A stretch of 64,000 nt of DNA from a virus. The notes below the pieces were generated by a model. That model was given only the letters and a program-made list of their open reading frames with translations, was not told where the DNA came from and did not search any database. The stretch is from the IMG/VR virus record IMGVR_UViG_3300006854_000019. One strand, given 5' to 3'. The position numbers were made by a program, and so were the translations under genes. This document shows positions 1,437-17,562 of this stretch, piece after piece. How positions within the stretch are numbered: the first letter of the stretch is position 1; every line of letters starts with the position of its first letter.

Positions 1437-1690
1437 GGAACACGCCCCAGGTTATTCGCGCGGACCTCGATTCGCTCGAACACGCTTGCCTCGGGATCTT
1501 CGTCGTACATCTCGACAGCTTCGTCCCCGCCATACCAGCGCGCGCCTTTGCGGCTGTGGATGATGACGTCGAGCGTAGCGCGGCCCCGCTGCAGCGCTTC
1601 TTCTATGGCCGCCAAACAGGCTAGCGAGTAGTCGTCGAAGTAACCGTCGCCGGCGGCATATTCGACATCCGGATGTGTAGGGCTCTTCAT
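1433..1690 (-). CDS. hypothetical acidic soluble protein (85 aa)
   Basis: ATG 1690..1688 overlaps stop of the J-domain gene (ATGA); natural-looking sequence (DVEYAAGDGYFDDYSLACLAAIEEALQRG). Confidence 0.65.
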   Translation of the reverse strand: MKSPTHPDVEYAAGDGYFDDYSLACLAAIEEALQRGRATLDVIIHSRKGARWYGGDEAVEMYDEDPEASVFERIEVRANNLGRVP

Positions 1691-2313
1691 GCCGCAGCCT
1701 TCCGTTTCTCGTACTCAGCCGTGAGGAGATCGAACGCACGCTGGATCTGCTTGAACTTCGCCTCAGCCTTCATCTTCGCTTTTTTCGCTTGGAACTTGTC
1801 CGGGTGCCACTGGCCAGAAAGTTTTCGGTGCGCCTTCTTCACGTCGTCCCAGGAGGACTTTAGATTCACGCCGAGTTGCTTCCGGGCCCACATGAGCTCT
1901 TTCTCATGCTCGGCCACCTGTTCATCGTCGACCTGTGCACGGGTCTTTCCGCCCGGCGCTTCGCGGCGGCGCGAGGAGGTCGCCATCGCTTCGGCAACGC
2001 ACTGGTAGCAAATGGCGTCGCCCTTCACGTCGATGCACGCGTGGGTCAGGCAACAGGGCTGGCGGCACACACCGCAGGCCGTGATCGCGACGCCCGGGCA
2101 CGAGCCGGCGGCTTTGCCGTTCTTGTAGACCAAGACCTCGCAGGCAAACCCCGCCGATAGGCGCGGGAGCCATTTGGGCACGGCATCGATTGCTAGGCTC
2201 TTGAGCCATGGGCGGAGCTCTTGCCAGATACGGGCCGTGCCCGGCGGATCGGCTTGGATGGAGCTTGCAATGCGTGTGAAGGCATCGAGGACCTGGGCGG
2301 CGTTCATAGCCAC
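1687..2313 (-). CDS. J-domain (DnaJ-like) protein with Cys-rich N-terminal region (208 aa)
   Basis: C-terminus WDDVKKAHRKLSGQWHPDKFQAKKAKMKAEAKFKQIQRAFDLL = J-domain helix II / HPD loop / helix III. N-terminal half has a Cys cluster (CPGVAITACGVCRQPCCLTHACIDVKGDAICYQC). GTG at 2313 or ATG at 2307. Confidence 0.85.
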   Translation of the reverse strand: MAMNAAQVLDAFTRIASSIQADPPGTARIWQELRPWLKSLAIDAVPKWLPRLSAGFACEVLVYKNGKAAGSCPGVAITACGVCRQPCCLTHACIDVKGDAICYQCVAEAMATSSRRREAPGGKTRAQVDDEQVAEHEKELMWARKQLGVNLKSSWDDVKKAHRKLSGQWHPDKFQAKKAKMKAEAKFKQIQRAFDLLTAEYEKRKAAA

Positions 2314-2318: not shown

Positions 2319-2792
2319 TTATCGCTTCTTTTGCAAAACCACTGCACCGACGAGGGCGGCGGCGGCGACAGCGCCGGCGATCATGAGCATTTTCTTCTTT
2401 TTCGCCGCTTCATCGTCCGCGGGCGCGGGCGTGGGCGTCGCATCGGCGCCGAAGCCGAAGCCGGTCAGCGCGGACTTGCGCATGAAGAGTGGCTGGGTCC
2501 GGTGGGGGATGCGCCAAGCGCCAAGTCCACTCATCTGCATCTTCCGGAGGAAGAGCGGGCGGCGGCGGCGCGGGATATGCCACCTGCCAAGGACGCCATC
2601 CGAAAAGGACGTGAGCATCTGCTCGTAACGCGCCGCTGGATCGGCCTGGGAAAACAGCCCATCGCGAAAGCTCCGCGGCTGATCGAAGCCGAGGCTTCCG
2701 TCCGCGTAGGCTTCGCGCTTGGCGCCAAATGCCGCCTGGGGGGTCGAAGTCGAAAAGATCCCGTCCCGAAATGAACGCTCGTTTAACGCCAT
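2319..2792 (-). CDS. tail-anchored membrane protein with RSFRDG(I/L)FS repeats (157 aa)
   Basis: ATG 2792 with GGAG about 10 nt upstream; internal repeats RSFRDGIFS / RSFRDGLFS and RIPxRxxPLFxRK; C-terminus KKKKMLMIAGAVAAAALVGAVVL-QKKR. Confidence 0.75.
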   Translation of the reverse strand: MALNERSFRDGIFSTSTPQAAFGAKREAYADGSLGFDQPRSFRDGLFSQADPAARYEQMLTSFSDGVLGRWHIPRRRRPLFLRKMQMSGLGAWRIPHRTQPLFMRKSALTGFGFGADATPTPAPADDEAAKKKKMLMIAGAVAAAALVGAVVLQKKR

Positions 2793-2851
2793 TGTCCGTA
2801 TCTCCTACAAGCGAGTGTAGGGGGAGCCGGGCAGCGCGCCAAGAAAAAGGG

Positions 2852-3073
2852 CTAAAGTTTCAGCCGCTTCTTGATCTCGGGGCCGTACTTCACGCCCACG
2901 AAGAGCGTCGCGCCTACGAGGATCGTGCCCCAGGCCCAGCCCGGGATCCCCGCCCGTTGCTCGGCCGCGCCGAGCCCAAGAAGCCTGCCGGCGAGGCGTA
3001 TCGGATTGTCGTCGATACGCTCGGCCGCTTCGGCGAGCTTCATCAGATCCTGGGGCGAGCTCGTGAATTCCAC
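2852..3073 (-). CDS. small membrane protein (73 aa)
   Basis: GTG 3073 directly after the TAA of the upstream small ORF; C-terminal helix GWAWGTILVGATLFVGV then KYGPEIKKRLKL. Confidence 0.65.
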   Translation of the reverse strand: MEFTSSPQDLMKLAEAAERIDDNPIRLAGRLLGLGAAEQRAGIPGWAWGTILVGATLFVGVKYGPEIKKRLKL

Positions 3074-3220
3074 TTAGCGCCCGAGCCGGAGACGCGGCGG
3101 CGAGACCATGGCCCAGAAAAGAAGCCCCGCGAAGCCGGCGAGAAGAAGCCAGGCGGCGATCTTGCCGGAAGGCGCAGCCTCATCACCGAGACCGCTGACG
3201 GCCACGATCGGCCGTTTCAC
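3074..3220 (-). CDS. small tail-anchored membrane protein (48 aa), below the ORF-track size cut-off
   Basis: Hand translation: GTG 3220..3218 overlaps the TGA of gene 3217..4023 (GTGA). MKRPIVAVSGLGDEAAPSGKIAAWLLLAGFAGLLFWAMVSPPRLRLGR, stop TAA 3076..3074. Same helix-plus-basic-stub design and coupling as its neighbours. Confidence 0.45.
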   Translation of the reverse strand: MKRPIVAVSGLGDEAAPSGKIAAWLLLAGFAGLLFWAMVSPPRLRLGR

Positions 3221-4023
3221 CGCCGGCCCTGCCAGTAGCGGTAGCCGAGGTAGGCGGCGCCGGCGAAGAGTGCCGTGCCGACGAGCAGCTTGCCGGTCGA
3301 TGGGGGCGCGGCAACGGGCGGCGCCGGCACGCTGGTCGGCGGCGTAGATGTGGGCGCTGCGTGGATCTGCGCGCCGAGGGCGATGCCAAAGGGGAGATCA
3401 GGATGCTGCCGCTCGCTGCCCGAGCGGGGCACTTGCACCGGGAACACGAGCTGGCCATTCAGGCGCCGGGCCGCGTCGTCCATCGTGCCGCGGCCGCCGT
3501 CGCGATCGTCGGGATCGGTGCGCGCTGTGGCCCAGTACAAAAACTGGATCTGCGGCACGGGCTTCGGATCGTCCTGCCGGTAGACGCCTTCGGCGGCGAA
3601 GAGCTTGTAGGGGCGCCCGGTGAACGCCGTCTCGGCCGCCATGTACTCGACCGGAACGGGCGTAAGTACGCCGACCCAACCGATGTCGTGGCCGAAGGCC
3701 GCCGATGACGCCATCGATAGGATCTGCTGGCTCAGCGGGTAGACGATGATGTTCTGGTCGGGCGTACGGATGTCCTGCCAGTCAATGCTGCCCTCTTGCT
3801 CGCCCCACGCCGTGTACACACCGATGGGTTGCACAGGCGTCGTGGCGCCGGGGAACTGGCCGCGAAGAATGGCCTCGAGTGTCTGTTCGCCGAAGCCCAT
3901 GCCGCTTGGCATTTCGGCGATCGAACCGAGCCCATTGATCGGCTGGTTGTACGCGTTCTTGTAGTAGGCGCCGAGACCGTTGATGGCCTGGTTGTACTGG
4001 TTTTTGTAGTAGGCGCCGAGCAT
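3217..4023 (-). CDS. tail-anchored membrane protein with N-terminal GLGAYYKN-YNQ-INGLG repeats (268 aa)
   Basis: ATG 4023 with GGAG 8 nt upstream; two N-terminal repeats LGAYYKNQYNQAINGLG / AYYKNAYNQPINGLG; Pro/Thr linker; C-terminus GKLLVGTALFAGAAYLGYRYW-QGRR. Confidence 0.8.
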   Translation of the reverse strand: MLGAYYKNQYNQAINGLGAYYKNAYNQPINGLGSIAEMPSGMGFGEQTLEAILRGQFPGATTPVQPIGVYTAWGEQEGSIDWQDIRTPDQNIIVYPLSQQILSMASSAAFGHDIGWVGVLTPVPVEYMAAETAFTGRPYKLFAAEGVYRQDDPKPVPQIQFLYWATARTDPDDRDGGRGTMDDAARRLNGQLVFPVQVPRSGSERQHPDLPFGIALGAQIHAAPTSTPPTSVPAPPVAAPPSTGKLLVGTALFAGAAYLGYRYWQGRR

Positions 4024-4173: not shown

Positions 4174-5124
4174 TCACACGCCACCGCCCGGCGATTGGCA
4201 GGGCTCCATCGCGCGCATGAGATCTTGGAAGGTGTTGTAGGGGACGAGTAGCCCTGTCACGTCGAGCTCGAAGAACGCGATCGGGATCGGCACGGGACGA
4301 AACACGATCACCTGAAATTCCGCGTTGTCGTTCTCGGTCACCGCTTGCATGAACGGGAGCTGGAGCGCGCCCAGGCGCTCGGTGCGCTGGGGCAGAAGCG
4401 ACAGGCCTCCGCCTGCGGTCTGGCTTGATTTGGATGTGCGCGCGAGATTGAACTCAGCCTGCGTAGCGCGCACCGTGCGCCCCGTCTCCGCATTGAAACT
4501 CGTGCTGAAGGTGGTCGTGGCAGCGAAGGCATCGGCCTGATCGGCGGGCGTCACCGGATCGATCTCCATCCGGATGTTGGCCGATTGGTGCGATGTGATG
4601 TTCCACTTGTAGCCGAGTAGGGTCGACAGGCGGCGCGCTTCGATCGGTGCCGTGTCGCCCGCAGCGATCCCGCTTAGTCGGTAGATGTCGAAGCGGTAGT
4701 CGATGATGAGCAGGGCCATGTTGCCCGGCACGGTGAACGAGCCGAGCGAGATCTTTTCGGGCCGCTCGGGCGTCGCGTTGAAGATGCCCTGCACCGGGAG
4801 CTTTCTGTAGAGCTGCTCGAACGGCACCCAGGTGGGATTGGTGAGTAGCTGCGAGAGCTGGCCGCCGGCGAGAACGACGCGTTCGGCGTTACACGGACCG
4901 AAGTAGTTCACCGGATCGGGCGGCGCGAACGGCTCGGGCTGGGTGAAATGCGGATTGGTTTCCCGGAAGCTCCGCACGAGTTCTTGCCCACTGGGGTTCG
5001 GGCGGATGGGCGGCAAGTGCGGCCCCTTGGCGACGGGGCGACCGGGCGCACCCGGCGGCCTTCCGCCACCACTTGGCGGGGTGATGATCCCGAGCGACTG
5101 CATGGGGCGAAGCGGGCCTGCCAT
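4174..5124 (-). CDS. beta-rich structural protein candidate (316 aa; possible capsid / vertex protein)
   Basis: Track ORF 4174..5169; I prefer ATG 5124 (MAGPLRPMQSLG), start uncertain. Pro-rich N-arm, then a long beta-strand-like sequence (ALLIIDYRFDIYRLSG, FQVIVFRPVPIPIAFFELDVTGLLVP). No enzyme motif. Confidence 0.6.
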   Translation of the reverse strand: MAGPLRPMQSLGIITPPSGGGRPPGAPGRPVAKGPHLPPIRPNPSGQELVRSFRETNPHFTQPEPFAPPDPVNYFGPCNAERVVLAGGQLSQLLTNPTWVPFEQLYRKLPVQGIFNATPERPEKISLGSFTVPGNMALLIIDYRFDIYRLSGIAAGDTAPIEARRLSTLLGYKWNITSHQSANIRMEIDPVTPADQADAFAATTTFSTSFNAETGRTVRATQAEFNLARTSKSSQTAGGGLSLLPQRTERLGALQLPFMQAVTENDNAEFQVIVFRPVPIPIAFFELDVTGLLVPYNTFQDLMRAMEPCQSPGGGV

Positions 5125-5181
5125 TTTCTGGTCCAAGCGTACCGCCGAACGGCGAGCGCCTCCTAACAATTCGGTGAAAAC

Positions 5182-5457
5182 TTACGCCGTGTACACGGCT
5201 CCATCGATGACGTGCCCGTGCCACTGGCAGCCTGTGGGCAGGAGGATCGACGGGCGCAGGGTCAGGTTTGCGAGGCCGGTTCCGGTCGCATGCCAGCGCC
5301 CGGGCCCTGGCGTCACGCCGGCGGGCACGTTTCGCCCGGCGAACCAGACCAGGAGCGAATGCTGGTCGGTGAAGCGGCACTTCGGGCAGAGGAAAGTAAC
5401 GCCGCCGGCAAGCGAGAGATCGTCCGTGTGGACGAGAAGCTCGCGATCGCCCTCCAT
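5182..5457 (-). CDS. small Cys/His protein, DUF6527-like (91 aa)
   Basis: FLCPKC...W(x)GTGLANLTLRPSILLPTGCQWHGHVIDGAV resembles the CPxC ... PS(I/L) ... C-x-H-G-x-(I/V)-x-x-G pattern of a phage-associated family I recall as DUF6527. Confidence 0.5.
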   Translation of the reverse strand: MEGDRELLVHTDDLSLAGGVTFLCPKCRFTDQHSLLVWFAGRNVPAGVTPGPGRWHATGTGLANLTLRPSILLPTGCQWHGHVIDGAVYTA

Positions 5458-5504
5458 CGTGTGGATGACGAGCTGCGGCTCGAGGTCGATGAGCCGGAGC
5501 GTAC

Positions 5505-6452
5505 TCAGTAAGGACCGTACCCCGCAGGCTGCACGATGCGGTAGCCGTGAAAGCCGATCGTCAGAATGCCGTTCGGCAGCCGCGTGACCGGGTCGGTGTC
5601 GCCCGCGTCCGCGTTGTTCGTGTCGTTGATGCCTTCGACCGCATCCCAGCCCGCGTCGAGGAAGGGGAAGTTCGTGTTCGGGGCACCGAATCCGGAGAGG
5701 TTTCCGTAGGCGGCGTTGTTGGCGTGCAGGGGCAGGATCTTGAAGGTCAGGACCTCGCCCCGCTCGAACACGTCGAGCGCACCCAGGGGGAAGGGATCGT
5801 TGATCTGCTTACACCAGAGCGAGCTCGGCACTTCGAGGTTCGTTCGGGGGAAGCTCGAGCCGGCGTTCTCGAACTTGATCCGGAAGTCGCCTTCCATCGA
5901 GCGCCAGGGCGAGAGCGTCGGCGGACTCGTCACGTGTGGAGCGCCGGTGCCGGGCGAGGCCTGCACCATCGTGACCTCGACGACGGGCTTACTGTCGCCG
6001 ATGTCCCAGACGCTGGCGATGGGGCGGTAGCGGCCGTTGCTCCGGCCGAGAAACGAGGCGCGGTCTCCGGTCACGGGATCGATGAACTGAAATTCGTAGT
6101 CGGACTGGAAGGTCGCGTAGCGGGCCACTGCCACGAACGGGCCTTCTTGCGAGATGGTGATCGAGCCCTGAAGGACACTCGTCACGCTCGCGCCGACGTT
6201 GATGTCGACCAACAGATCGAACGGGATGCGCCGGCCGGGAATGTTCTCCACGTACTGGATCTTGGGATCACCCGTACGCGAGGCCTCGACCTTTTGAATC
6301 GCCTGCGACAATCGGGCGAGCTCGCCGCGGATCGCATTGGCATCTTGGGACTGAAGTCCTGCTTGCTGCGCGAGTTGAAGGGCCTGCCGGGCAGTGCCCG
6401 ACGCGTAGCCCACTTGGTTCACGAGCTGCGCAAACTGCTGATCGGTAATCAT
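5505..6452 (-). CDS. structural protein candidate: N-terminal coiled coil + beta-rich domain (315 aa)
   Basis: ATG 6452 (MITDQQFAQLV) preceded by GGAGG 6 nt upstream. About 60 aa of helical heptad-like sequence, then a beta-rich body ending GILTIGFHGYRIVQPAGYGPY. Confidence 0.7.
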   Translation of the reverse strand: MITDQQFAQLVNQVGYASGTARQALQLAQQAGLQSQDANAIRGELARLSQAIQKVEASRTGDPKIQYVENIPGRRIPFDLLVDINVGASVTSVLQGSITISQEGPFVAVARYATFQSDYEFQFIDPVTGDRASFLGRSNGRYRPIASVWDIGDSKPVVEVTMVQASPGTGAPHVTSPPTLSPWRSMEGDFRIKFENAGSSFPRTNLEVPSSLWCKQINDPFPLGALDVFERGEVLTFKILPLHANNAAYGNLSGFGAPNTNFPFLDAGWDAVEGINDTNNADAGDTDPVTRLPNGILTIGFHGYRIVQPAGYGPY

Positions 6453-6578
6453 CACGTGCCTCCACAATCGAGGGAGTACCGGCGCGCGGGGTGCGCGCGC
6501 CGTGCCGTTAAGTCGAAGGGCCTAAGCGCGCCGCATCGCCCGCGAAGTGGGAAAGGAGGGAGCCTTTTAGAGGAAGCT

Positions 6579-6610
6579 CGCGAACCACTTCGCGGGCAAT
6601 TGTCGCCCGC
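6579..6610 (-). terminator. two adjacent GC stem-loops just downstream of the capsid-candidate gene
   Basis: CGCGAA-ccac-TTCGCG (6579..6594) and GCGGGC-aattgtc-GCCCGC (6592..6610). A third, GGCGCGCG-gggtg-CGCGCGCC, lies at 6481..6501. No U-tracts. Confidence 0.3.
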
Positions 6611-6636
6611 GGCGCTTGGCGTTTCGGGAGGAGTTC

Positions 6637-7389
6637 TTACTGAACGTCTCGCGAGAACAGACCGTCGAACGTGAAGGTCACGACCTTTTGGATCGCGTCG
6701 ATCGCGTTCAGGTTGTCCCGGAGGCTCAGCATGTCGCGCGACCCTTGGGTCGTGCCGAACAGCTGCGCGTTGCCGTTCGCGCTCATGCCGAAGATCTTTG
6801 CCTGGCAAAGGATGTTCTGGCGGGGCGGGAGCAGGATCGCGCGCGCGAGCCGGAGGATGCCCGAGTGGCCATCGTTGCCGGAGTTCTGCCAGTGGATGAG
6901 GTCGGTCGTGCCGCCCATGTCACCGGAGATTCCGCCGCCGGCCGGGAAGTACCAGGTCGGCATGTTGTCGATGGAGTTCTTGAGGCCGGTGCCGAAGCTC
7001 CAGTGCAGCTGCTCTGCCGTCTGCCAAATCAGACGGTAGTAGTCCTGCACGGTGCCCGGGGCCTGACCCTCGGCGATACCGCCAGTGAGCCACGCCTCGA
7101 GAGAGCCGTAGTCACCGTTCTGCGCCACTTCACCGTCGGCGCCGCCGTCGATCCGCAGGATCGGATTGCGGTACCAGGCGAAGACGCGCAACGCGAGAAC
7201 GACGTGGCTCTGATCGGACGGCAGAGTCGAGCCGTTGATCAGGTTGGTCGTCGACTCGTTGCGTTGCCCGTTCGAGGTGAACAGGCTCGTCGTGTCGGTG
7301 AGGGAACCGGCGCTGAGGCCGGCTGTGCGAACGAGCGTATCCCAAAATGGCTGATGAACGCGCTCGCGAATCGAAACTACCTTTGCCAT
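6637..7389 (-). CDS. major structural protein candidate (250 aa; possible single jelly-roll capsid protein)
   Basis: ATG 7389 (MAKVVSIRERVHQPFWDT). N/G/T/S-rich all-beta-looking sequence ending KVVTFTFDGLFSRDVQ. Preceded by a 276-nt structured leader and followed by clustered hairpins, as expected for a highly expressed capsid gene. Fold assignment is inference only. Confidence 0.6.
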   Translation of the reverse strand: MAKVVSIRERVHQPFWDTLVRTAGLSAGSLTDTTSLFTSNGQRNESTTNLINGSTLPSDQSHVVLALRVFAWYRNPILRIDGGADGEVAQNGDYGSLEAWLTGGIAEGQAPGTVQDYYRLIWQTAEQLHWSFGTGLKNSIDNMPTWYFPAGGGISGDMGGTTDLIHWQNSGNDGHSGILRLARAILLPPRQNILCQAKIFGMSANGNAQLFGTTQGSRDMLSLRDNLNAIDAIQKVVTFTFDGLFSRDVQ

Positions 7390-7614
7390 TGTGTCTTTTG
7401 TCCTTACAGGGCTTCCATTTTTAGAGTGGCTGGTTCCACTTCGTGGATCCCTTTCGGAAGAGCCACAATTCGACCCTGTTGTCGGATGTTCGGGCTGGCA
7501 CTACACGGCACAACCATTGTTCCGTGTGAGCGCCTTCAACGCCCCAAGGCCCGAGCTCCTGGTTTTCCAGGAGACATCGAGCCCGGGAGCGCGGCTGGAT
7601 TCCCTTCTCAGGGA

Positions 7615-7640
7615 CTCACGGTCACCCGCATGACCGTGAG
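7615..7640 (-). terminator. perfect 10-bp stem-loop 26 nt downstream of the polybasic-protein gene
   Basis: CTCACGGTCA-cccgca-TGACCGTGAG; no U-tract follows, so termination is only a possibility. Confidence 0.3.
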
Positions 7641-7665
7641 GGAGCGCACCAGCCTTCGTGATGGA

Positions 7666-9735
7666 TCAACCGAAGACGCCCTGGCCTCCGTCGGTCTGGA
7701 GAATCCCAGCCGGGGTGAGAGCGCTCGCGCTTTGCGGCGAGCTCACCGGCCGGACGCCTGCCCACAGCTGTGGGTCACTCGTCCCGGGGATCCACGTGTC
7801 CGCAGAGGGCACGCGGCTGATAGCGCCGAGACCATTCATGCTCTCGGCGAAGTACTCGCCAACGCCTGCACTGGCCTCGTACGGTTGAACACGACCCATG
7901 CCCGCCGCCGCCTCGTAAGGCGGAAGCTGGCCGACGCCTGCCGCCGCTTCGGCGATCGTGAGCTCGCGCTCGAGATCGCTTGCCGGGTCGATGTGATTGG
8001 TGTTGGTGTTCGGCATCGCGCCGATGCCCGCTGCCGCTTGGTAGAAGTCGGGATTCGGTCCGTAATTGCCGAGACCATTCATGCTCTCGGCGAAGTACTC
8101 GCCCATCCCGCTCATCGGCTCGTTGAAGTACTCGCCCACGCCGCGCCCACCGCTGATCGCGGCGTAGTGCGGCATGATGCTCGCGCCCGCGCCGAGGCCG
8201 TACATGGCGGACAGGCGTGCAGCCGTTCCGTCATCGTACCCAGCGAGGTAGCCCGAGGCCTGCGGAGCAACCTTGTCGAACACGGTAACGAGCACCGTGT
8301 GCAGGAAGGCTGCGGCGAGACCGCCGGTGAGCAAGTACTGCGTCTTGACGTCCTTCACCACCGCGGTCGTGAGCGCGATGCCAGCGATGGCGCCGACAGC
8401 GCCGCCGATGAGTGCCTTGTAAGGCTGAAGGGCTTCGAGACCGCTCGTGGCCGGAGGGGTCGCCGGCGCTGCGGGGGTAGCCGCTTTGCCGAGCACCTTG
8501 TCGAGGACGAGATCGCCCAGGACTTTGGTGATGACCTTCTGACCAGCGAAACCGAGCGCGATGAAGGCGCCTGCTTTGAAGGCGGCTTCGAGATTGCCGA
8601 GAGCGCTGTTCTTACGGAACACGCTCTTCGACCGACGGCTCTTGCGCGCCCGGCGACGGCCGTGATGCCGGCTCCGGTTCGGAGTGTGCCGGCGATTCTT
8701 GCGGTGCGTGCGGCGCTTCGCGTGCGACCGGCGACGGGCATGCACCCGGCGGCGATTGCGACGATGCGTACGGCGCTTGGCCGCGTGGCGGCGGTTCTTG
8801 CGATGCGTGCGGCGCTTTGCAGCACGGCGGCGCGGCGAACGACGCTTGGCCGAAGCCTTGCGGCGCTTCCTACGGCGCGGTGCGGCCACCTTCACAGCAC
8901 GGCGGCGGCGCTTGGCCGACGCTTTCCGCTTCTTCCGGCGGCGCTTCCGCGGGTTTGCCACGTAATCGCTCTCGCTCGAGCGCATGGCGCGGCGGCGCGC
9001 GCGGCGCTGGGCCGAAGCGTACGACGCCCGACGCCGACGACGCCGGCTACGGCGCTTCTTCGGCGTGGCTGCCCGCTTGGCAGCGGCGCGGCGGCGCTTT
9101 CGGGGCGCGCTCTTACGCTTGCCTGCGCTTCGGCGCCTTTTCTTGTGGGTACGCTTGGCTGCATGAGTGCGGCGGTTCGCGGCGAGCCGCGAGCGCCGAC
9201 GACGACGTCGCTTCATGGTGCTTTTCCTTCCTGCGTGCTTCCGAATGCGCTTTCGCGTACTCGAAGTTTTTCGGGTTCGTTTTGCCGAAACCTTGCGCTT
9301 GCGCGACTTTTTGGCGACCTTGCGGCGGTGCCGCGCGGGACGCGCAGCCGCGACGGTCGGCGTGTGCCGGCGGAACTTGCGGCGGCGGGGCGAGCCGAAC
9401 CGCGATCCGCTATGCGTGAGCGGGTGGGCGCGGACCGTGCGACGTTTCGCGTTCTTCCGGTGCGACGCGCTGTGCACCCGCTTGGCAAACGCGGACCGTT
9501 CGGACGCCGTCAGCTTTCTGGCACGTGCGAGGCGCGCATTCGGGGAGAGCCCCGTCATCGCCCGGCGGGCGGAGGTCGGCCGGCGGCGGAATCGCCTACG
9601 GTAGGCGCCCCGGCCGTTCACCGCGGCAATCGCGGTGACCCCTGGATTTGCCCGCATCCCGGGCCGCGCGTAGCCGTAGCTCTTCGCCGCCCTCTTCGGG
9701 ATCGGGAATGCGCGTCCTACTGCTCGTCGCTTCAT
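7666..9735 (-). CDS. polybasic (protamine-like) N-terminus + hydrophobic core + GxGEYF-repeat C-terminus protein (689 aa)
   Basis: ATG 9735. First ~380 aa are dominated by R/K/H with tandem AAKRRTHRKNRRH-type repeats. Middle has hydrophobic helices (GGAVGAIAGIALTTAVV, LLTGGLAAAFLHTVLVTVF). C-terminus carries GVGEYFNEPMSGMGEYFAESMNGLG and a second GVGEYFAESMNGLG. Confidence 0.8.
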   Translation of the reverse strand: MKRRAVGRAFPIPKRAAKSYGYARPGMRANPGVTAIAAVNGRGAYRRRFRRRPTSARRAMTGLSPNARLARARKLTASERSAFAKRVHSASHRKNAKRRTVRAHPLTHSGSRFGSPRRRKFRRHTPTVAAARPARHRRKVAKKSRKRKVSAKRTRKTSSTRKRIRKHAGRKSTMKRRRRRRSRLAANRRTHAAKRTHKKRRRSAGKRKSAPRKRRRAAAKRAATPKKRRSRRRRRRASYASAQRRARRRAMRSSESDYVANPRKRRRKKRKASAKRRRRAVKVAAPRRRKRRKASAKRRSPRRRAAKRRTHRKNRRHAAKRRTHRRNRRRVHARRRSHAKRRTHRKNRRHTPNRSRHHGRRRARKSRRSKSVFRKNSALGNLEAAFKAGAFIALGFAGQKVITKVLGDLVLDKVLGKAATPAAPATPPATSGLEALQPYKALIGGAVGAIAGIALTTAVVKDVKTQYLLTGGLAAAFLHTVLVTVFDKVAPQASGYLAGYDDGTAARLSAMYGLGAGASIMPHYAAISGGRGVGEYFNEPMSGMGEYFAESMNGLGNYGPNPDFYQAAAGIGAMPNTNTNHIDPASDLERELTIAEAAAGVGQLPPYEAAAGMGRVQPYEASAGVGEYFAESMNGLGAISRVPSADTWIPGTSDPQLWAGVRPVSSPQSASALTPAGILQTDGGQGVFG

Positions 9736-9870: not shown

Positions 9871-10044
9871 CTATTTCTTGCGCGCCAGCCAAAGAATGCC
9901 GGCAGCAGCAAGAAGGCCGATTCCGATGATCCCGCGAGTGGTCAGGAGCTTCGTTTGCGGGTGCGATTCGTTGTAGGACGGGGCGTTCGTAAGGACCGGC
10001 GGCGGGTGGAGGTCATCACCTACGGGGAAGTTTGCGTACGACAT
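9871..10044 (-). CDS. tail-anchored membrane protein (57 aa)
   Basis: ATG 10044 (MSYANFPVGDD) overlaps TGA of upstream gene by 1 nt; C-terminus RGIIGIGLLAAAGILWL-ARKK. Confidence 0.6.
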   Translation of the reverse strand: MSYANFPVGDDLHPPPVLTNAPSYNESHPQTKLLTTRGIIGIGLLAAAGILWLARKK

Positions 10045-10916
10045 CAGCGGGTCCTCCAAAGCACGAGTCCGAGGGCAGCGGCGCCGGCGACGAGAAGTGC
10101 CGTGTTGCGGATCGTCTCCGATTGTTTCTGTGCGTGGCCAACGAGATGCTCATGCTCGCGCACGACGGCAGTGTAACGGAGTAGCACGCGCGGGGTCGCG
10201 CCGAGGAGCGCGTTCGTGGCATCGGCCAAACGCTGCACAGACACCGCCGGCGGGAAGCTGCAGACGTTGTAGGGCACCGTGTTTGGTGGGAGAGACGAGG
10301 GGGATCCGTTCCAGCCTGGTGGCGGGAACAGATCCATTGCACCAGCGGCCACGAGCTCAGCCCACGAATTGATCGGTGTGAGCGCGCCCTTGTACATGGC
10401 AGTCGGCGGCTTCACTTCCGGATGGGCGCGGCGCGCATCATCGACCGCCTTGATCGAAGCATTCTGCTGGCGCAAGTACTGCTCGTGCAGCGGCGCACAC
10501 GCGCGGAGCTCGGCTGCGGCGCGCATGCGTTCGCCAGCGTGGTCCAGGTAGTCCTGGCAGGCTGGCGTGTTGTGGAACGTCGCGCCGCCCGCGCGCATCT
10601 GTTCGCAGAAGTTACACGGATCGAAACTGTGCACGGTGTTGCAGTCGATCGGGTGACTCACGCCGAAGATGTCATCGAGGACATCGGCCACGGCGCCCAC
10701 GATGGCGCCGGCGACTGCGCCGCAGGGCCCTGGCGGAATGCCGTAGGCCGCGCAGTACGCGTTCGCGGCGCAGCTTGCGCCGTTTTTCGCGGCGTTTTTT
10801 CGCCCGTCGCCCGTCGATAGATCACCGTGGGCAGCGAGTTTCGCGCAATTGCCCATCTTGACGTCGATGTCTTTGCCTTTGTCGTCGCCGAGACCGCGGA
10901 AGAATTGGTAGCTCAT
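10044..10916 (-). CDS. Cys-rich tail-anchored membrane protein (290 aa)
   Basis: ATG-AGC-TAC start (MSYQFFRGLGDD), ATGA overlap at 10913..10916; many Cys in the ectodomain; C-terminus NTALLVAGAAALGLVLW-RTR. Confidence 0.75.
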   Translation of the reverse strand: MSYQFFRGLGDDKGKDIDVKMGNCAKLAAHGDLSTGDGRKNAAKNGASCAANAYCAAYGIPPGPCGAVAGAIVGAVADVLDDIFGVSHPIDCNTVHSFDPCNFCEQMRAGGATFHNTPACQDYLDHAGERMRAAAELRACAPLHEQYLRQQNASIKAVDDARRAHPEVKPPTAMYKGALTPINSWAELVAAGAMDLFPPPGWNGSPSSLPPNTVPYNVCSFPPAVSVQRLADATNALLGATPRVLLRYTAVVREHEHLVGHAQKQSETIRNTALLVAGAAALGLVLWRTR

Positions 10917-11470
10917 CCGGTGATCCCGTCCTTTTCCACGTCGAGTACTTCGCCGGTCACGAGCGCATGCACGCCGGCTTGCGTGTACACGATGAGCATC
11001 ATCTGCCCTGTCTCGGGATGCTTCGTAGCACCGAGCCAGCCGGCAAGATTGATCTGGTAGTAGCCGCCGCGATCGGGAATGCCGTAGTCATCGGGCGTGC
11101 CTTCGTGCAGGCGGGCCTGGATGCCAAGGATCTTGGCGAGCACGGCAAAGCCTTCAGGCATGGGCCGCGGGAGTTCGAGCATCGGGCCCACAAAGTCGTC
11201 GTCATCTTCGGCGAAGATCACAGAACCCGGGGTGAGAAGGAGATTCTGGTTACCTTCGGCGATGTGCTTGTAGTCGACCGGCACTTTCTCGCGCCACTTG
11301 TCGGAGCTGTACATCACCGCCTCGCACGTGCCCACGTGCTGCATCCGCCGCGGCCAGGTCCAGGAGACCGGCGTGATCTTGTTCGCGGGTTCGTCATAGA
11401 ACGTCTCGCGGATCTTTTTGGCCCGCTCGATGTCGCTTTTTCGGTTCGGCGTGTAGATGCGGCGGATCAT
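10913..11470 (-). CDS. hypothetical soluble protein (185 aa)
   Basis: Internal ATG 11470 (MIRRIYTPNRK) forms an ATGA overlap with the stop of 11467..11793; no TM helix; no motif recognised. Confidence 0.7.
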   Translation of the reverse strand: MIRRIYTPNRKSDIERAKKIRETFYDEPANKITPVSWTWPRRMQHVGTCEAVMYSSDKWREKVPVDYKHIAEGNQNLLLTPGSVIFAEDDDDFVGPMLELPRPMPEGFAVLAKILGIQARLHEGTPDDYGIPDRGGYYQINLAGWLGATKHPETGQMMLIVYTQAGVHALVTGEVLDVEKDGITG

Positions 11471-11793
11471 CGGTTTCGCTTCCAGATCCACCAGCCGATG
11501 CCGATGCCGAGGGCGAGCATGCCGATGTTGCCGATGCCGATGCTCATGCTGGCGCCGAGTACGCCCGAGCGGGACATGGGCGCAACGAGCCCGCGCGCTA
11601 CGGGTCCGGAACCGACACGGGTCGAACCCGAGGGGATGGAACGGCCCGCTTCGTTACTCGGGATCCCGATGTCGGTACCGCCTGACAGGCGTGGCACGGG
11701 CAGATCATCGCCGATGCCGACCGATTGACCGGGCGCATCGTAGTAGTCGTACCCGCCGATGTCCGGGCGCCATTGAGAGTAGATCACGCCCAA
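11467..11793 (-). CDS. tail-anchored membrane protein (about 106-108 aa)
   Basis: TTG 11793 or GTG 11787 start; high third-position G+C in this frame across 11705..11793; C-terminus MSIGIGNIGMLALGIGIGWWIW-KRNR. Confidence 0.6.
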   Translation of the reverse strand: MGVIYSQWRPDIGGYDYYDAPGQSVGIGDDLPVPRLSGGTDIGIPSNEAGRSIPSGSTRVGSGPVARGLVAPMSRSGVLGASMSIGIGNIGMLALGIGIGWWIWKRNR

Positions 11794-14386: not shown

Positions 14387-14776
14387 TCAGGCGTGCTTCG
14401 GCTTCTTCTTGTGCTTCTCCCACTCCTTGTAGCCGTAGTACGCGCTACCGAGGGAAGCGACGGCGATGAGGCCGTAGGCCCAGAAGGGAACCTGGTTCAA
14501 GGCAGAAGCAATGTCGCGCTTCCACGCCGGCATCTCCGCGCCCGTTTCCACGAAGCGGCGGAACGCCTCGGGCAGGATGCTCGAATCGGTCGGTACATCG
14601 CCGAGGCCGTCGGGCGTCCGGCCCATGTCCGTGTAGTACCCATCGTCATACGGAGCGCGGAAGTTCGACACGTCACCGTACATGCGTCCCGGCGGCCAGG
14701 CGGCGCCGAGGCCCTGAAACGGTACGCCGATGAACGGCGACCGAAAGGACTGCATGCCGATGTACTTCCGACTCAT
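14387..14776 (-). CDS. tail-anchored membrane protein (129 aa)
   Basis: Internal ATG 14776 (MSRKYIGMQSF) in ATGA overlap with upstream stop; C-terminus VPFWAYGLIAVASLGSAYYGY-KEWEKHKKKPKHA. Confidence 0.65.
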   Translation of the reverse strand: MSRKYIGMQSFRSPFIGVPFQGLGAAWPPGRMYGDVSNFRAPYDDGYYTDMGRTPDGLGDVPTDSSILPEAFRRFVETGAEMPAWKRDIASALNQVPFWAYGLIAVASLGSAYYGYKEWEKHKKKPKHA

Positions 14777-15384
14777 GCGTGTATCCAACCCTTCTTTTTG
14801 GCGATCGCGTAGCCGATGACGCCGACGGCCGCGATGCCGCCACCGACCATCAGCATGCTGGCCGTGGTCATCTTCGGCTTGGTCGGCGCAAGCACGGGAT
14901 TGGTCACCGGCGTCGGGGTCGGCGCGGGCGGCGGCGGGGGTGGTGGTGGCGGGGCCAGGTGCGGATCGTAGGAGAACGACTTGCACGTGCCGGGCACGGA
15001 GAAGCCCGAGCCGCCATTGTCGAGCGCCCACTTGAGCGCGCCGCAGGTGCCGGGGCCGAGCTTTCCGTCAGCGCCGACCGTGGCCGCGCCCTTCGAGGCG
15101 AGGAAATTATTCAGGGTGCGCTGCATGAGCGCGGTGTTCGAGCTGTACGTACCCCAGGGGTATGAGCTTGCCGGTCCGCCGCCGCCGGCATTGATCCCGT
15201 GCTGCAGGCCGCCCGTTGCGCAGTTCGCCTGGCAGATGGTGCGATTTCGCGTATCGTCCTCGTCGAAGGACGGGTACTGCGCGCCGCACTTGTCCAGGCA
15301 CTGGTTGAAGCTGAAATCGTCGAGGCCGGAGTCGTCAGCGCCGACGCCGCGATTTTTCGTCTTGAAAATACCCATCCCTTGCAT
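14773..15384 (-). CDS. tail-anchored protein with peptidoglycan-binding-like domain and poly-Pro linker (203 aa)
   Basis: LMQRTLNNFLASKGAATVGADGKLGPGTCGALKWAL fits the PG_binding_1 pattern (LQ..LN..G....vDG.fGp.T). Then PPPPPPPPPAPTPTP and the helix MLMVGGGIAAVGVIGYAIA-KKKGWIHA. Confidence 0.7.
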   Translation of the reverse strand: MQGMGIFKTKNRGVGADDSGLDDFSFNQCLDKCGAQYPSFDEDDTRNRTICQANCATGGLQHGINAGGGGPASSYPWGTYSSNTALMQRTLNNFLASKGAATVGADGKLGPGTCGALKWALDNGGSGFSVPGTCKSFSYDPHLAPPPPPPPPPAPTPTPVTNPVLAPTKPKMTTASMLMVGGGIAAVGVIGYAIAKKKGWIHA

Positions 15385-15390
15385 GGCGGA

Positions 15391-16104
15391 CTATCCTTTC
15401 CTCTTCTTCATGAAATAGATGAGCGCGGCGGCAGCGATCCCGCCGACCACGAGAGCCTTGGTTTCCGAGCTCATGTTCGCCGGCGAATAGCGCCCGGGGA
15501 GTTTCGTGCCGGTGGGCGGGGGAACGACCGAGCCGCCGGGCGGCTTCGTGCCGCCACCCCCGCCGCCGGAACCACCACCCGATGCGCCGCAGTTCGGGCC
15601 CTTCTTCGGGGGCGTGCCGAAACCCTGGCATGTAGAAGGTGGCGGCATGCCGATCGGGATCATCGCGGCGCAGGTGCCGGCGCCGAGTTTTCCGTCAACT
15701 GGGATCGGGCAGTATCCGGCGGCGACGAGCGCGAGATTGATCGAGCCCTGAAGGCCGACCGTGGCCGTGCTGTACTCGCGCCACGGGTAGCCCGCGTCAT
15801 CGCCGAGCCCGCGGAGCCCGCTGATCCCGTTGTTGAAGATCCCGCCGCCCGCCTCTTCGGTGCCGAAGATGCCGCGTTTGGTTTCCCACAAGAGTTCGCC
15901 GAGGCCGGAGAGGCCAGAGAGTCCCGACATGGATGATCCTTTTTCCTGCCAGATGTCTTCGGGCTTGAAGACCGACTGGGGCGAGGTCCTGTAGATGAGG
16001 GGGCCCGTGACCGGACGCGTGTAGATCGGGCCGTGGAACCGCGTGGGCCACGGATGCACCGTCCAAACGAACGGTGAGGGGACGCCCGAATCTTGATACC
16101 GCAT
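15391..16104 (-). CDS. tail-anchored protein with peptidoglycan-binding-like domain, paralogue of 14773..15384 (237 aa)
   Basis: ATG 16104 with AAGGA/GAGGA upstream (track start 16113 is TTG). VGLQGSINLALVAAGYCPIPVDGKLGAGTCAAM; Gly/Pro linker; C-terminus ALVVGGIAAAALIYFM-KKRKG. Confidence 0.7.
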   Translation of the reverse strand: MRYQDSGVPSPFVWTVHPWPTRFHGPIYTRPVTGPLIYRTSPQSVFKPEDIWQEKGSSMSGLSGLSGLGELLWETKRGIFGTEEAGGGIFNNGISGLRGLGDDAGYPWREYSTATVGLQGSINLALVAAGYCPIPVDGKLGAGTCAAMIPIGMPPPSTCQGFGTPPKKGPNCGASGGGSGGGGGGTKPPGGSVVPPPTGTKLPGRYSPANMSSETKALVVGGIAAAALIYFMKKRKG

Positions 16105-16116
16105 CGTCCTCAATCC

Positions 16117-17219: not shown

Positions 17220-17223
17220 CGGT

Positions 17224-17562
17224 TCACCGTTTCTTCTTCATCGATCGGTAGGCGATGATGCCACCACCGACGACGAGGGCGGCGACGAGGCCGCCGATGA
17301 CGAGCTTCTTTTTCTGATCGTCTTCACCCGATCCGGCTCCGGCTCCGCTGTCGGTCGGCGTGCCGCGGTCGGTGTGCGTCGGCACCGACGTCATGGACAC
17401 GCACGGGCGAAGCGTCTGCACCCAGCACGGATCGGCGCCTGCGAAGCGGCCGCTGAGCGCGCCGAGACCCGCGATCACGGGGTGGCAGTTCGCGCGCGCT
17501 TCGATGAGCTCGGCCTGCGTTGCGCAGGTGGGGTATCCACCGTTTCCGAGTCCGCTGTACAT
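17224..17562 (-). CDS. tail-anchored protein with YPTCATQA...ADPCWVQTL domain (112 aa)
   Basis: Internal ATG 17562 (MYSGLGNGGYPTCATQAELIEARANC...GADPCWVQTLRPC) overlapping the upstream stop by 1 nt; C-terminus KKLVIGGLVAALVVGGGIIAY-RSMKKKR; paralogue of 17936..18604. Confidence 0.65.
   Translation of the reverse strand: MYSGLGNGGYPTCATQAELIEARANCHPVIAGLGALSGRFAGADPCWVQTLRPCVSMTSVPTHTDRGTPTDSGAGAGSGEDDQKKKLVIGGLVAALVVGGGIIAYRSMKKKR

What the first reader, a model, noticed from the sequence alone, without database searches (positions are those of the whole stretch)
4174..7389. Three beta-rich capsid-like proteins, but no portal, terminase or tail gene in 64 kb
Genes 4174-5124, 5505-6452 and 6637-7389 encode 316-, 315- and 250-aa proteins that look all-beta and carry no enzyme motifs. 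The 315-aa protein starts with about 60 aa of coiled coil, as trimeric vertex/spike proteins do. The 250-aa gene has the longest structured leader in the window and is followed by hairpins, which fits a very highly expressed capsid gene. I could not recognise any HK97-type capsid, portal, large terminase, tape-measure or baseplate signature in any frame. The only P-loop I found is in DnaB.

Inference: these could be vertical jelly-roll capsid proteins (two single jelly-roll MCPs plus a vertex protein, or similar). That would place the element with membrane-containing tailless viruses.
Basis: inference. Interest (0 to 1): 0.75.

Follow-up and report, generated by a model that had tools for sequence, protein, structure and literature searches.

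The report
Jelly-roll virion genes, no known packaging motor
The three genes belong to a conserved, very probably virion-forming gene block of an undescribed group of about 110-180 kb circular DNA elements from soil and other metagenomes; two of the proteins are predicted to fold as jelly rolls like the coat proteins of tailless membrane-containing viruses, and no head, tail or DNA-packaging gene of any known kind was found in the parts of these genomes that I could read.

Summary
Three real genes lie on the minus strand: A at 4174-5124, B at 5505-6452 and C at 6637-7389. None matches any Pfam, PHROG or PDB sequence family.

C has 687 homolog clusters and B has 653, all unnamed, on contigs of up to 180 kb. 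Two related contigs close into circles of about 135 and 138 kb.

AlphaFold models show beta-sandwich, jelly-roll cores. B is modelled well (pLDDT 77, with an N-terminal helical hairpin) and C moderately (pLDDT 64). Their nearest structural neighbours include the single-jelly-roll coat proteins of SPV1, SH1, P23-77 and HHIV-2. No match is significant, and cellular jelly rolls score equally well. A was not modelled.

The genes sit in a syntenic block. It also holds a protamine-like membrane protein, many tail-anchored membrane proteins and a DnaJ protein.

I read 82 kb of this genome, 83% of a circular relative and 57-96 kb of four others. None contained a terminase, portal, HK97 capsid, tail gene or FtsK/HerA packaging ATPase.

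The lineage appears undescribed.

The parts
6637..7389 (-). Gene C, 250 aa: the most conserved protein of the block and the candidate single-jelly-roll coat protein
   Evidence: It has 687 homolog clusters, and the top 120 are 71-88% identical. It is present in 28 of 28 IMG/VR loci. The AF2 model has pLDDT 64 and pTM 0.64, with about 9 strands and 1 helix. Foldseek neighbours are almost all viral jelly-roll coat proteins, none significant.
5505..6452 (-). Gene B, 315 aa: N-terminal helical hairpin (residues 4-57) followed by a jelly-roll beta sandwich; candidate second coat protein
   Evidence: It has 653 homolog clusters at about 60% identity. A B homolog lies downstream of C in 27 of 28 loci, directly adjacent in most. 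The AF2 model has pLDDT 76.8, and all five models score 75-77. Foldseek hits include PHM, SH1, P23-77 VP16, FLiP, D13 and HHIV-2, with E = 0.004-0.06.
4174..5124 (-). Gene A, 316 aa (309 aa from a later start): proline-rich variable N-terminus plus a conserved core of about 230 aa; third structural candidate, fold not determined
   Evidence: It has 37 homologs at 31-60% identity. It occupies the same position in at least 17 of 28 loci. Profile comparison shows no homology to B or C.
5182..5457 (-). 91-aa zinc-ribbon protein between A and B
   Evidence: Gene calls and a weak PF20137 (BubE/DUF6527) hit.
7390..7665 (-). Highly structured 276-nt leader upstream of C
   Evidence: MFE is -127.5 kcal/mol against -96.9 for shuffles; z = -5.6.
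6453..6636 (-). Hairpin-rich spacer between C and B
   Evidence: z = -3.6, with two long GC-rich stems. No canonical T-tract terminator was found.
7666..9735 (-). 689-aa protein directly upstream of C. Its parts are an Arg/Lys-rich protamine-like N-terminal 340 aa, a transmembrane hairpin (441-486) and a C-terminal region with three GxGEYF motifs. It is a candidate membrane-anchored genome-condensing protein.
   Evidence: R+K is 30-54% and D+E at most 1% over residues 1-340. A homolog lies upstream of C in all 28 loci. Stop-to-stop ORFs of 597-824 aa with a basic N-half are kept in relatives A-E. Gene callers started it late, giving 318 aa.
3217..4023 (-). 268-aa conserved protein downstream of A, with two N-terminal LGAYY motifs and a hydrophobic C-terminus
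   Evidence: Homologs occupy the same position in 15 loci. Motif count is; the sequence is.
2319..3073 (-). Two small membrane proteins, each with a C-terminal hydrophobic segment and a basic tail (2319-2792 and 2852-3073)
   Evidence: The hydropathy scan flags 2319-2792 as tail-anchored; for 2852-3073 the hydrophobic segment is read from the sequence. The 2852-3073 homolog is present in 11 loci.
1687..2313 (-). 208-aa DnaJ (J-domain) protein inside the block
   Evidence: PF00226 with E = 5e-12. Homologs are present in 19 loci by BLAST.
9871..11793 (-). Tail-anchored proteins at 9871-10059, 10044-10916 and 11467-11793, plus a conserved 192-aa protein at 10913-11491
   Evidence: Hydropathy scan. 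The 192-aa protein has homologs in 20 loci and the 108-aa protein in 16 loci.
14387..17769 (-). Upstream part of the block. It contains paralogous 203- and 240-aa proteins and three tail-anchored proteins (16117-16533, which has two N-terminal GxGEYF motifs; 16530-17219; 17224-17769).
   Evidence: Synteny in relatives A, C, D and E. TM and motif scan.

Best explanation
A, B and C are late, highly expressed structural genes of the morphogenesis block of an undescribed lineage of large circular dsDNA viruses of bacteria. Genomes are about 110-140 kb, with some contigs to 180 kb.

The proposed mechanism has five parts.
1. C and B are two unrelated single-jelly-roll proteins that together build the icosahedral shell, as the two coat proteins of P23-77, SH1 and SSIP-1-type viruses do.
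2. A is a third beta-rich shell or vertex component.
3. The shell encloses a lipid vesicle that carries the many tail-anchored proteins encoded around these genes.
4. The genome is condensed by the Arg/Lys-rich domain of the membrane-anchored 689-aa protein encoded just upstream of C.
5. The C-terminal GxGEYF peptides of that protein, and those of other anchored proteins, may dock the membrane to the shell.

What is shown: the genes exist; they are conserved and syntenic; B and C are predicted jelly-roll-like beta sandwiches; relatives close into circles; and known head, tail and packaging genes are absent from the sequence examined.

What is inferred: virion localisation, shell formation, the internal membrane, genome condensation and peptide docking.
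For: Conservation typical of coat proteins:
- C has 687 homolog clusters and B has 653. C is above 70% identical among its 120 best hits.
- The order basic protein, C, B holds in 27-28 of 28 diverse IMG/VR loci. In most, A, the 268-aa protein and the DnaJ protein follow.
- In distant relatives a LAGLIDADG homing endonuclease sits between C and B.

Folds:
- B: pLDDT 76.8, all five models agree, beta sandwich after a helical hairpin.
- C: pLDDT 63.6, about 9 strands.
- For C, 48 of the 50 listed PDB neighbours are viral coat or capsid structures, almost all jelly-roll coat proteins; the best is SPV1 (E = 0.04, prob 0.6). The best BFVD hit has prob 0.96.
- For B, neighbours include SH1, P23-77 VP16, FLiP MCP, vaccinia D13, HHIV-2 and STIV.

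Context:
- 13 of 77 window genes end in a transmembrane anchor; 7 of these are among the 23 genes in 1-17.3 kb.
- The basic N-half of the 689-aa protein is kept in five relatives.
- The GxGEYF motif occurs 8 times against 0.08 expected.
- C has a strongly structured leader and trailing hairpins.

Viral rather than plasmid character:
- Relatives are filed in IMG/VR.
- Two close as circles through 120- and 127-nt terminal repeats.
- Endolysin, SLT and PG-binding genes are present.
- No relaxase or type IV secretion family appears in any Pfam list.
- C has no relative in PLSDB plasmids or GenBank phages, and B none in GenBank phages.

Non-tailed gene content: no terminase, portal, HK97 capsid or tail family was found in any of these:
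- 82 kb of this genome;
- 111.8 of 135.3 kb of circular relative D, whose gap is flanked by homologs of window positions about 35k and 53-58k;
- 57-96 kb of relatives A, B, C and E.
Against: - No Foldseek match passes E = 0.001, and TM-scores are low (0.2-0.4). For B, cellular jelly rolls (PHM, CBM4, APRIL, Cry toxin domain) rank with or above the viral ones.
- C's model is only moderate, with residues 147-184 unmodelled.
- A was not modelled.
- The FtsK/HerA packaging ATPase shared by nearly all known jelly-roll-capsid dsDNA viruses is absent from everything examined. It normally lies near the coat genes.
- There is no direct evidence of virions or lipids.
- 39% of the window's own genome was not read. 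The bulk scans listed only the top 25 families per batch (8, 27 and 3 families were hidden), and I re-scanned only the largest unannotated proteins one by one.
- ParB, DnaA-like, DnaB, DnaG and DnaN genes, an integrase, a two-component system and a CRISPR array would also fit a plasmid-like element.
Confidence: 0.45

Rival explanations
1. The element is a non-viral extrachromosomal replicon, a large plasmid-like element. Under this reading A, B and C are abundant secreted or envelope-associated beta-sandwich proteins, such as lectin-like, adhesin or surface-layer parts. They would work together with the neighbouring membrane proteins and would not be capsid proteins.
For: The element carries a bacterial-type replication and partition set: ParB, DnaB, a DnaC-like loader and DnaN in the window, and DnaG and a DnaA C-terminal domain in relatives. 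It also carries integrases, a two-component system, a CRISPR array, many glycosyl- and methyltransferases and IS/TnpB elements. No virion hallmark of any realm was found. Jelly-roll sandwiches are common in cellular proteins, and such proteins are among B's best hits.
Against: No relaxase, type IV secretion or coupling-protein family was listed in any Pfam scan. C has no relative in 72,556 plasmid records. Relatives are filed as viral in IMG/VR. Endolysin-type genes are present. A protamine-like domain of 340 aa is hard to explain outside DNA condensation. C's structural neighbours are almost exclusively viral coat proteins. B and C have no signal peptide visible in their sequences; this is my reading of the sequences, not a tool result.
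Confidence: 0.2
2. The element is a virus with a different virion design that needs no packaging motor. Examples would be a pleomorphic or enveloped particle, or a nucleoprotein core that is wrapped after condensation by the basic protein. B and C would then be membrane-associated or nucleocapsid jelly-roll proteins and would not form a PRD1/P23-77-style icosahedral lattice.
For: Both known packaging ATPase types are absent. A membrane-anchored protamine-like protein is conserved next to C. The block is dense in membrane proteins and includes a J-domain protein that could recruit host Hsp70 for assembly. Structural matches to vertical jelly-roll coat proteins are weak.
Against: Two or three distinct, strongly conserved jelly-roll proteins encoded side by side is the signature of icosahedral shells. 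C's conservation (above 70% among its 120 best hits) suggests lattice constraints. Nothing observed favours a particular non-icosahedral form.
Confidence: 0.2
3. The element is a tailed phage (Caudoviricetes). Its HK97 capsid, portal, terminase and tail genes would either lie in the unread parts or be too divergent for Pfam and PHROGs. A, B and C would be accessory virion proteins such as decoration, fibre or baseplate-associated beta sandwiches.
For: Genome size (110-180 kb) and features such as a CRISPR array, a sigma factor, DnaB/DnaG and endolysins are common in large tailed phages. Beta-helix, collagen-repeat and repeat-rich fibre-like proteins occur (window 31493-33262; L005 12697-14100; relatives C and E). 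39% of this genome and 17% of relative D were not read. A Walker A regex can miss terminases.
Against: Large terminase and portal are the most reliably detectable phage proteins. None appeared among about 340 protein-cluster representatives and about 70 individually scanned proteins from six genomes. The gap in D is flanked by homologs of known window regions. No ORF of terminase or portal size remains unannotated apart from beta-rich, coiled-coil or basic proteins. B and C are not HK97 folds.
Confidence: 0.12

Closest known systems
Vertical single-jelly-roll, two-coat-protein viruses with an internal membrane: Thermus phage P23-77 (VP16/VP17), haloarchaeal SH1 and HHIV-2 (VP4/VP7), and Salisaeta phage SSIP-1, which reviews group with them (PMC4958249, PMC6356626)
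   Same: Two different small beta-sandwich proteins are encoded side by side. The predicted jelly-roll cores have SH1, P23-77 VP16 and HHIV-2 among their nearest PDB neighbours. Many small membrane proteins lie in the same block. The genome is circular dsDNA. There are no tail genes.
   Different: The genome is 3-8 times larger (about 135 kb against 17-44 kb). There is no sequence or profile similarity, and the structural similarity is not significant. No FtsK/HerA-type packaging ATPase was found. A membrane-anchored protamine-like protein and a J-domain protein are present, and I know of no counterpart in those viruses.
Sulfolobus polyhedral virus 1 (Portogloboviridae), PDB 6oj0
   Same: It is the best PDB neighbour of C's model (E = 0.04, prob 0.60). 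SPV1 also has single-jelly-roll coat proteins, an internal membrane and, from my own knowledge, no identified packaging ATPase and a genome condensed by protein.
   Different: SPV1 is an archaeal hyperthermophile virus with a 20-kb genome. The match is not significant, there is no sequence similarity, and the hosts here are most likely bacteria.
PRD1/PM2-type double-jelly-roll viruses (Bamfordvirae: Tectiviridae, Corticoviridae, Autolykiviridae, FLiP)
   Same: Both are tailless with an internal membrane studded with small membrane proteins. Virion-associated or lysis peptidoglycan hydrolases are present. FLiP MCP and vaccinia D13 are among B's weak hits.
   Different: B and C each model as one sandwich, not a double jelly roll. 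No A32/P9-type ATPase was found. PRD1 replicates with a protein-primed polymerase; here the replication proteins are bacterial-type. The genome is 9-14 times larger.
Large tailed phages (Caudoviricetes), including CRISPR-bearing huge phages
   Same: Shared features are genome size, a CRISPR array with spacers against related sequences, a sigma factor, DnaB/DnaG, endolysins and fibre-like beta-helix proteins.
   Different: No HK97 capsid, portal, terminase, tail tube, sheath, tape-measure or baseplate family was detected in any genome of the group that I examined.

Membership tests
Helvetiavirae-type vertical single-jelly-roll viruses (Sphaerolipoviridae and allies) | Two major coat proteins, each with a single jelly-roll fold standing vertical to the shell | tested here: inconclusive
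   B and C model as jelly-roll-type sandwiches. SH1, P23-77 VP16 and HHIV-2 are among their neighbours, but E = 0.01-0.06 and cellular jelly rolls score alike. Orientation in a shell cannot be tested.
Helvetiavirae-type vertical single-jelly-roll viruses (Sphaerolipoviridae and allies) | FtsK/HerA-superfamily (A32-like) genome-packaging ATPase, usually next to the coat genes | tested here: not met
   No such Pfam or PHROG family was found, and no suitable Walker A protein lies within 10 kb of C in 28 genomes. None was found in 82 kb of this genome or in the 57-112 kb read from each of relatives A-E. The only small P-loop protein is AAA_28 kinase-like. Coverage of the genomes is incomplete.
Helvetiavirae-type vertical single-jelly-roll viruses (Sphaerolipoviridae and allies) | Internal lipid membrane under the protein shell | not testable with these tools
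   There is only an indirect hint: 13 tail-anchored proteins in the window, concentrated around A, B and C.
Helvetiavirae-type vertical single-jelly-roll viruses (Sphaerolipoviridae and allies) | Detectable sequence or profile homology to known members' coat proteins | tested here: not met
   Profile searches of all PDB chains found nothing. hhalign against SSIP-1 gp45, gp46 and gp47 gave E = 0.04-0.8.
Caudoviricetes (tailed phages, HK97 lineage) | HK97-fold major capsid protein, portal protein and large terminase | tested here: not met
   No such family appears in any Pfam or PHROG scan of the window, its extensions or five relatives. B and C are beta sandwiches, not HK97 folds. Caveats are the unread genome parts and the 25-family display limit.
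Bamfordvirae (double-jelly-roll capsid viruses: PRD1, PM2, FLiP) | One coat protein with two jelly rolls in one chain, plus a single-jelly-roll penton protein | tested here: not met
   The models of B and C each contain one sandwich of about 8-10 strands. D13 and FLiP hits are weak (E = 0.02-0.05). A was not modelled, so a double jelly roll in A is not excluded.
Conjugative or mobilisable plasmids | Relaxase, and type IV secretion or coupling proteins | tested here: not met
   None is listed in the Pfam scans. C has no relative in PLSDB. ParB and bacterial-type replication genes are present, so plasmid-like maintenance is not excluded.

The most novel reading that the evidence does not exclude
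This is a new, high-rank lineage of large (110-180 kb) bacterial dsDNA viruses. Its virions would be built from single-jelly-roll proteins around a protein-studded internal membrane. They would lack both known genome-packaging motors (terminase/portal and FtsK/HerA ATPase). Instead, the genome would be loaded by condensation on a membrane-anchored protamine-like protein, possibly with help from host Hsp70 recruited by the viral J-domain protein. That would make it by far the largest non-tailed prokaryotic virus group and a packaging strategy not known in bacteria.
Probability: 0.25. Interest if true: 0.92.

Novelty: new variant of a known kind. Interest (0 to 1): 0.8.

Why it matters
From my own knowledge, the known tailless membrane-containing viruses of bacteria and archaea have genomes of about 9-45 kb, and all large prokaryotic dsDNA viruses described so far are tailed.

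Here hundreds of related contigs, two of them closed circles of about 135-138 kb, carry a conserved block with predicted jelly-roll proteins and membrane proteins. In the sequence examined they carry none of the hallmark genes used to recognise any known virus realm.

If these are virions, three things follow:
- The size range of jelly-roll-capsid prokaryotic viruses is extended three-fold or more.
- A widespread soil group is revealed that hallmark-based virus discovery cannot classify.
- A concrete question is posed: how is a 135-kb genome encapsidated without a known motor?

B, C and the basic protein also give ready markers for finding and sorting this group in metagenomes and viromes.

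Tried and rejected
Searches that found nothing:
- Sequence searches of A, B and C against Pfam, PHROGs and PDB, both single-sequence and profile.
- C and B against GenBank phages, and C against PLSDB plasmids.
- Profile comparisons among A, B and C. They are not paralogs.
- Four literature searches. Three looked for a description of such a group and found none; the fourth only retrieved SSIP-1 background.

Leads that did not hold up:
- A deeper C profile with 50%-cluster representatives revealed a shorter (about 190-210 aa) subfamily but still no PDB relative.
- A Walker A hit 'GGTGHGKS' near C in some relatives turned out to be DnaB-like helicases, not packaging ATPases.
- A 519-aa P-loop protein in relative C is a classical CDC48/FtsH-type AAA protein. 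A 192-226-aa P-loop protein matches AAA_28 kinases.
- I recalled the 566-aa protein of relative E as tail-like. PHROGs and Pfam gave no hit, so I dropped that idea.
- The identity of the best BFVD hit, I1ZBH9, could not be verified. SSIP-1 gp46 has the right length (211 aa), but hhalign gives only E = 0.1. I treat it as a lead.

Technical attempts:
- An alignment with a concatenated B+A first row, meant to model both proteins in one job, came out misaligned, so I did not submit it.
- A single-protein query from this genome failed to find relatives in IMG/VR.
- Walking then worked with chimeric queries of six 24-aa edge fragments.
- A local hhalign sweep of all SSIP-1 proteins timed out.

Full report
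**1. The observation**

The window is about 64% G+C. The three ORFs lie on the minus strand exactly as described: A at 4174-5124 (316 aa; the longest ORF runs to 5169), B at 5505-6452 (315 aa) and C at 6637-7389 (250 aa). Third-position GC is 0.81-0.85. Gene calls on identical public contigs agree, giving 250 aa, 315 aa and 316 or 309 aa. The window is part of ENA contig ERZ27257952 k141_3898925, which is 134,701 bp long, so it covers less than half of the replicon.

None of the three proteins, nor their neighbours, matches Pfam or PHROGs. Single sequences and profiles find nothing among PDB chains.

The 276-nt leader of C is unusually structured (z = -5.6), and the C-B spacer carries strong hairpins (z = -3.6). 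Within the window the only Pfam-recognisable proteins are these:
- a DnaJ-domain protein;
- DnaB;
- a DnaC-like loader;
- DnaN;
- ParB;
- a DNA methylase;
- a PG-binding protein;
- a weak glycosyltransferase hit.

A Walker A motif in a credible ORF occurs only in DnaB.

**2. How widespread the genes are**

C has 687 homolog clusters at 90% identity, and the best 120 are 71-88% identical. B has 653 clusters at about 60% identity. A has 37 at 31-60% identity. All are unnamed and lie on contigs of up to 138 kb in that collection. A full HMM scan of 1.84 billion representatives finds 112 clusters for C, including a shorter subfamily of about 190-210 aa that lacks one loop. A, B and C are not detectably related to one another. 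C has no relative in GenBank phage records or PLSDB plasmids, and B none in GenBank phages.

IMG/VR holds 28 loci with C relatives at 30-82% identity, on contigs of 9-182 kb, 18 of them above 110 kb. MAG bins that contain C relatives come from inconsistent phyla. Four of ten are Planctomycetota, so the host is unknown.

**3. Folds**

- C: modelled from 55 sequences of low diversity, it gives pLDDT 63.6 and pTM 0.64, with about nine strands and one long helix. Residues 147-184 are unmodelled.
- C against the PDB: no Foldseek match is significant. Even so, 48 of the 50 listed neighbours are viral coat or capsid structures, almost all jelly-roll coat proteins. The best is SPV1 6oj0 (E = 0.04). 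Others include picornavirus VP1, circovirus, tymovirus, an iridovirus capsid component and HHIV-2.
- C against BFVD: the best hit, I1ZBH9, has E = 0.007 and prob 0.96, and many capsid proteins follow.
- B: modelled from 119 sequences, it gives pLDDT 76.8, with all five models at 75-77. Two helices (4-30 and 35-57) form a hairpin, followed by a sandwich of about 8-10 strands.
- B against the PDB: the neighbours, at E = 0.004-0.06, mix cellular jelly rolls with viral ones. The cellular ones are PHM, CBM4, APRIL and a Cry toxin domain. The viral ones are SH1 6qt9, P23-77 VP16 3zn5, FLiP MCP, vaccinia D13, HHIV-2 and STIV.

Both proteins are therefore jelly-roll-type sandwiches and not HK97 folds, but a specific relationship to any capsid family is not demonstrated. 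Its alignment shows a variable proline-rich N-terminus and a conserved core of about 230 aa.

**4. Context**

In the 28 IMG/VR loci a conserved order recurs:
- a 600-920-aa protein homologous to window 7666-9735;
- C;
- B;
- usually A;
- the 268-aa protein;
- small membrane proteins;
- a DnaJ protein.

In distant relatives a LAGLIDADG homing endonuclease sits between C and B.

The 689-aa protein has an N-terminal 340 aa with 30-54% Arg+Lys and almost no acidic residues. A transmembrane hairpin follows, then a C-terminal region with three GxGEYF motifs. The long basic ORF is kept in five relatives.

Thirteen of 77 window genes end in a transmembrane anchor, and seven of those are among the 23 genes in 1-17.3 kb. 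The GxGEYF/LGAYY motif occurs eight times against 0.08 expected. It is found in the basic protein, in a tail-anchored 138-aa protein and in the 268-aa protein.

**5. The rest of the replicon**

I applied it as follows.

- I extended the window by 9.2 kb on each side, giving 82.4 kb of 134.7 kb.
- I walked along five related IMG/VR contigs. Chimeric queries extended six contig edges per scan.
- Relative D (IMGVR_UViG_3300006854_000001, the same as JGI Ga0075425_100000037) closes on a 120-nt terminal repeat. Relative C closes on a 127-nt repeat, so both are complete circles.
- Coverage reached is shown below.

| Relative | kb read | Contig length (kb) |
|---|---|---|
| A | 88.7 | 110.7 |
| B | 64 | 125.7 |
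| C | 96.2 | 138.3 |
| D | 111.8 | 135.3 |
| E | 67 | 125 |

- D's remaining 23.5-kb gap is flanked by homologs of window positions about 35k (DnaN) and 53-58k. It is therefore probably syntenic with a part of the window that is already known.

Pfam and PHROG scans covered about 340 cluster representatives in bulk and about 70 proteins one by one. They found these proteins:
- replication: a DnaA C-terminal domain, DnaB, DnaG and DnaN;
- other DNA processing: ParB, SNF2/DEAD helicases, RuvC and integrases;
- gene expression and nucleotide metabolism: a sigma factor, ThyX and an RNA ligase;
- ATPases: a CDC48-like AAA protein and an AAA_28 kinase-like protein;
- modification enzymes: glycosyl- and methyltransferases;
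- cell-wall and other hydrolases: endolysin, SLT and PG-binding proteins, a GDSL/LamG protein and a subtilase;
- fibre-like proteins: a collagen-repeat protein;
- mobile elements: TnpB and IS elements.

They found no terminase, portal, HK97 capsid, tail, relaxase, type IV secretion or FtsK/HerA ATPase.

Three caveats apply. Bulk mode lists only 25 families per batch. 39% of the window's own genome is unread. Very divergent proteins could escape HMMs.

**6. Interpretation**

The best reading (confidence about 0.45) is that A-C belong to the virion module of an undescribed lineage of large circular dsDNA viruses. B and C would be single-jelly-roll shell proteins over a membrane that carries the tail-anchored proteins. 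The basic membrane protein would be a genome condenser.

Three rivals remain:
- a non-viral plasmid-like element with surface beta-sandwich proteins (0.2);
- a virus with a different, motor-less virion design (0.2);
- a tailed phage whose hallmark genes are unread or too divergent (0.12).

The closest known systems are the two-coat-protein vertical jelly-roll viruses P23-77, SH1, HHIV-2 and SSIP-1, as grouped in the reviews PMC4958249 and PMC6356626, and SPV1. Membership is not established. The fold test is inconclusive, the ATPase test is not met, and sequence homology is absent. The element may work like those viruses without being one of them.

**7. Novelty and score**

I found no paper describing such a group. 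On the best reading this is a new variant of a known kind: a jelly-roll, membrane-containing, tailless virus, but three to eight times larger and without the usual packaging ATPase. A categorically new packaging and virion strategy remains possible (probability about 0.25). Interest is 0.8.

Noticed in passing
L005 20695-21320 (same genome, about 8.6-9.2 kb right of the window end; L005 x = window x + 51887); targets at window 2808-2841 and 42322-42360: A CRISPR array of at least 9 repeats (36 nt, CTGTGAAGAGCATCCCGGGCGCGATGAGCTCGGGAC; spacers 36-40 nt) follows a two-component system. Spacer 6 matches the element's own DNA 34/34, in the spacer between two tail-anchored protein genes. Spacer 2 matches 35/39. 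No cas operon was seen nearby. This could be self-matching or targeting of close competitors.
   Followed up: partly
L036 10402-12342 (just left of window position 1); also relatives A and D: A 646-aa protein with a weak Cas12f1-like/TnpB nuclease-domain hit and a C-terminal zinc finger lies at the point where this genome's gene order departs from its relatives. TnpB-like 488-514-aa genes and an IS1-type transposase occur in relatives.
   Followed up: partly
window 7666-9735, 16117-16533, 3217-4023 (minus strand): A short peptide motif, G-x-G-E-Y-F (or LGAYY), recurs 8 times against 0.08 expected. It mostly occurs in membrane-anchored proteins, and it is kept in relatives, including a 171-aa tail-anchored protein of relative C with four copies. 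It may be a docking peptide.
   Followed up: partly
window 31493-33262 (+); L005 12697-14100 (+); relative E (L059 539-3466 and 3475-5175); relative C (L042 2932-4398): Several fibre- or spike-like candidates have no family match. They include a 589-aa beta-helix-like protein in a low-GC island, a 467-aa protein with repeats of about 45 aa ('GNSVSAGTVVFSNANxVSFGMAGSTVT'), a 975-aa beta-helix-like protein followed by a 566-aa protein with no family match, and a 488-aa collagen-repeat (GPT) protein. Any of these could be host-recognition proteins.
   Followed up: partly
window 25100-30107, 34085-35521 (minus strand) and relatives: The element carries a near-complete bacterial-type replication set: ParB, DnaB, a DnaC-like loader and DnaN in the window, and DnaG and a DnaA C-terminal domain in relatives. 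No DNA polymerase was seen, which suggests reliance on the host replicase.
   Followed up: partly
L027-L031 (IMG/VR), e.g. L030 10876-12546: In the relatives about 31% identical to C, a 556-aa LAGLIDADG homing endonuclease, followed by a PAPS-reductase/DUF3440 gene, is inserted between C and B.
   Followed up: no
relatives D (L055/L056) and C (L068/L069): Contig ends overlap by 120 and 127 nt, so both are closed circular assemblies of about 135.3 and 138.3 kb. Gene order outside the C block is heavily rearranged between relatives. For example, homologs of window 60-63 kb lie next to the block in relatives A, B, D and E.
   Followed up: yes
window 46673-47812 (+): A 379-aa protein with a GFSAGG serine-hydrolase motif and a C-terminal transmembrane anchor. 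It is conserved (31-58% identity) in relatives B and E.
   Followed up: no
L078-L086 (GTDB MAG contigs): C relatives are binned into MAGs of unrelated phyla, which is typical of mis-binned mobile DNA. The bins are Pirellulales (two), Planctomycetota, Phycisphaeraceae, Pseudomonadota, Pseudomonadales, Deltaproteobacteria, Acidobacteriota and a Methanomicrobiales archaeon, plus Gemmatimonadales in NCBI names. Planctomycetota are the most frequent.
   Followed up: no
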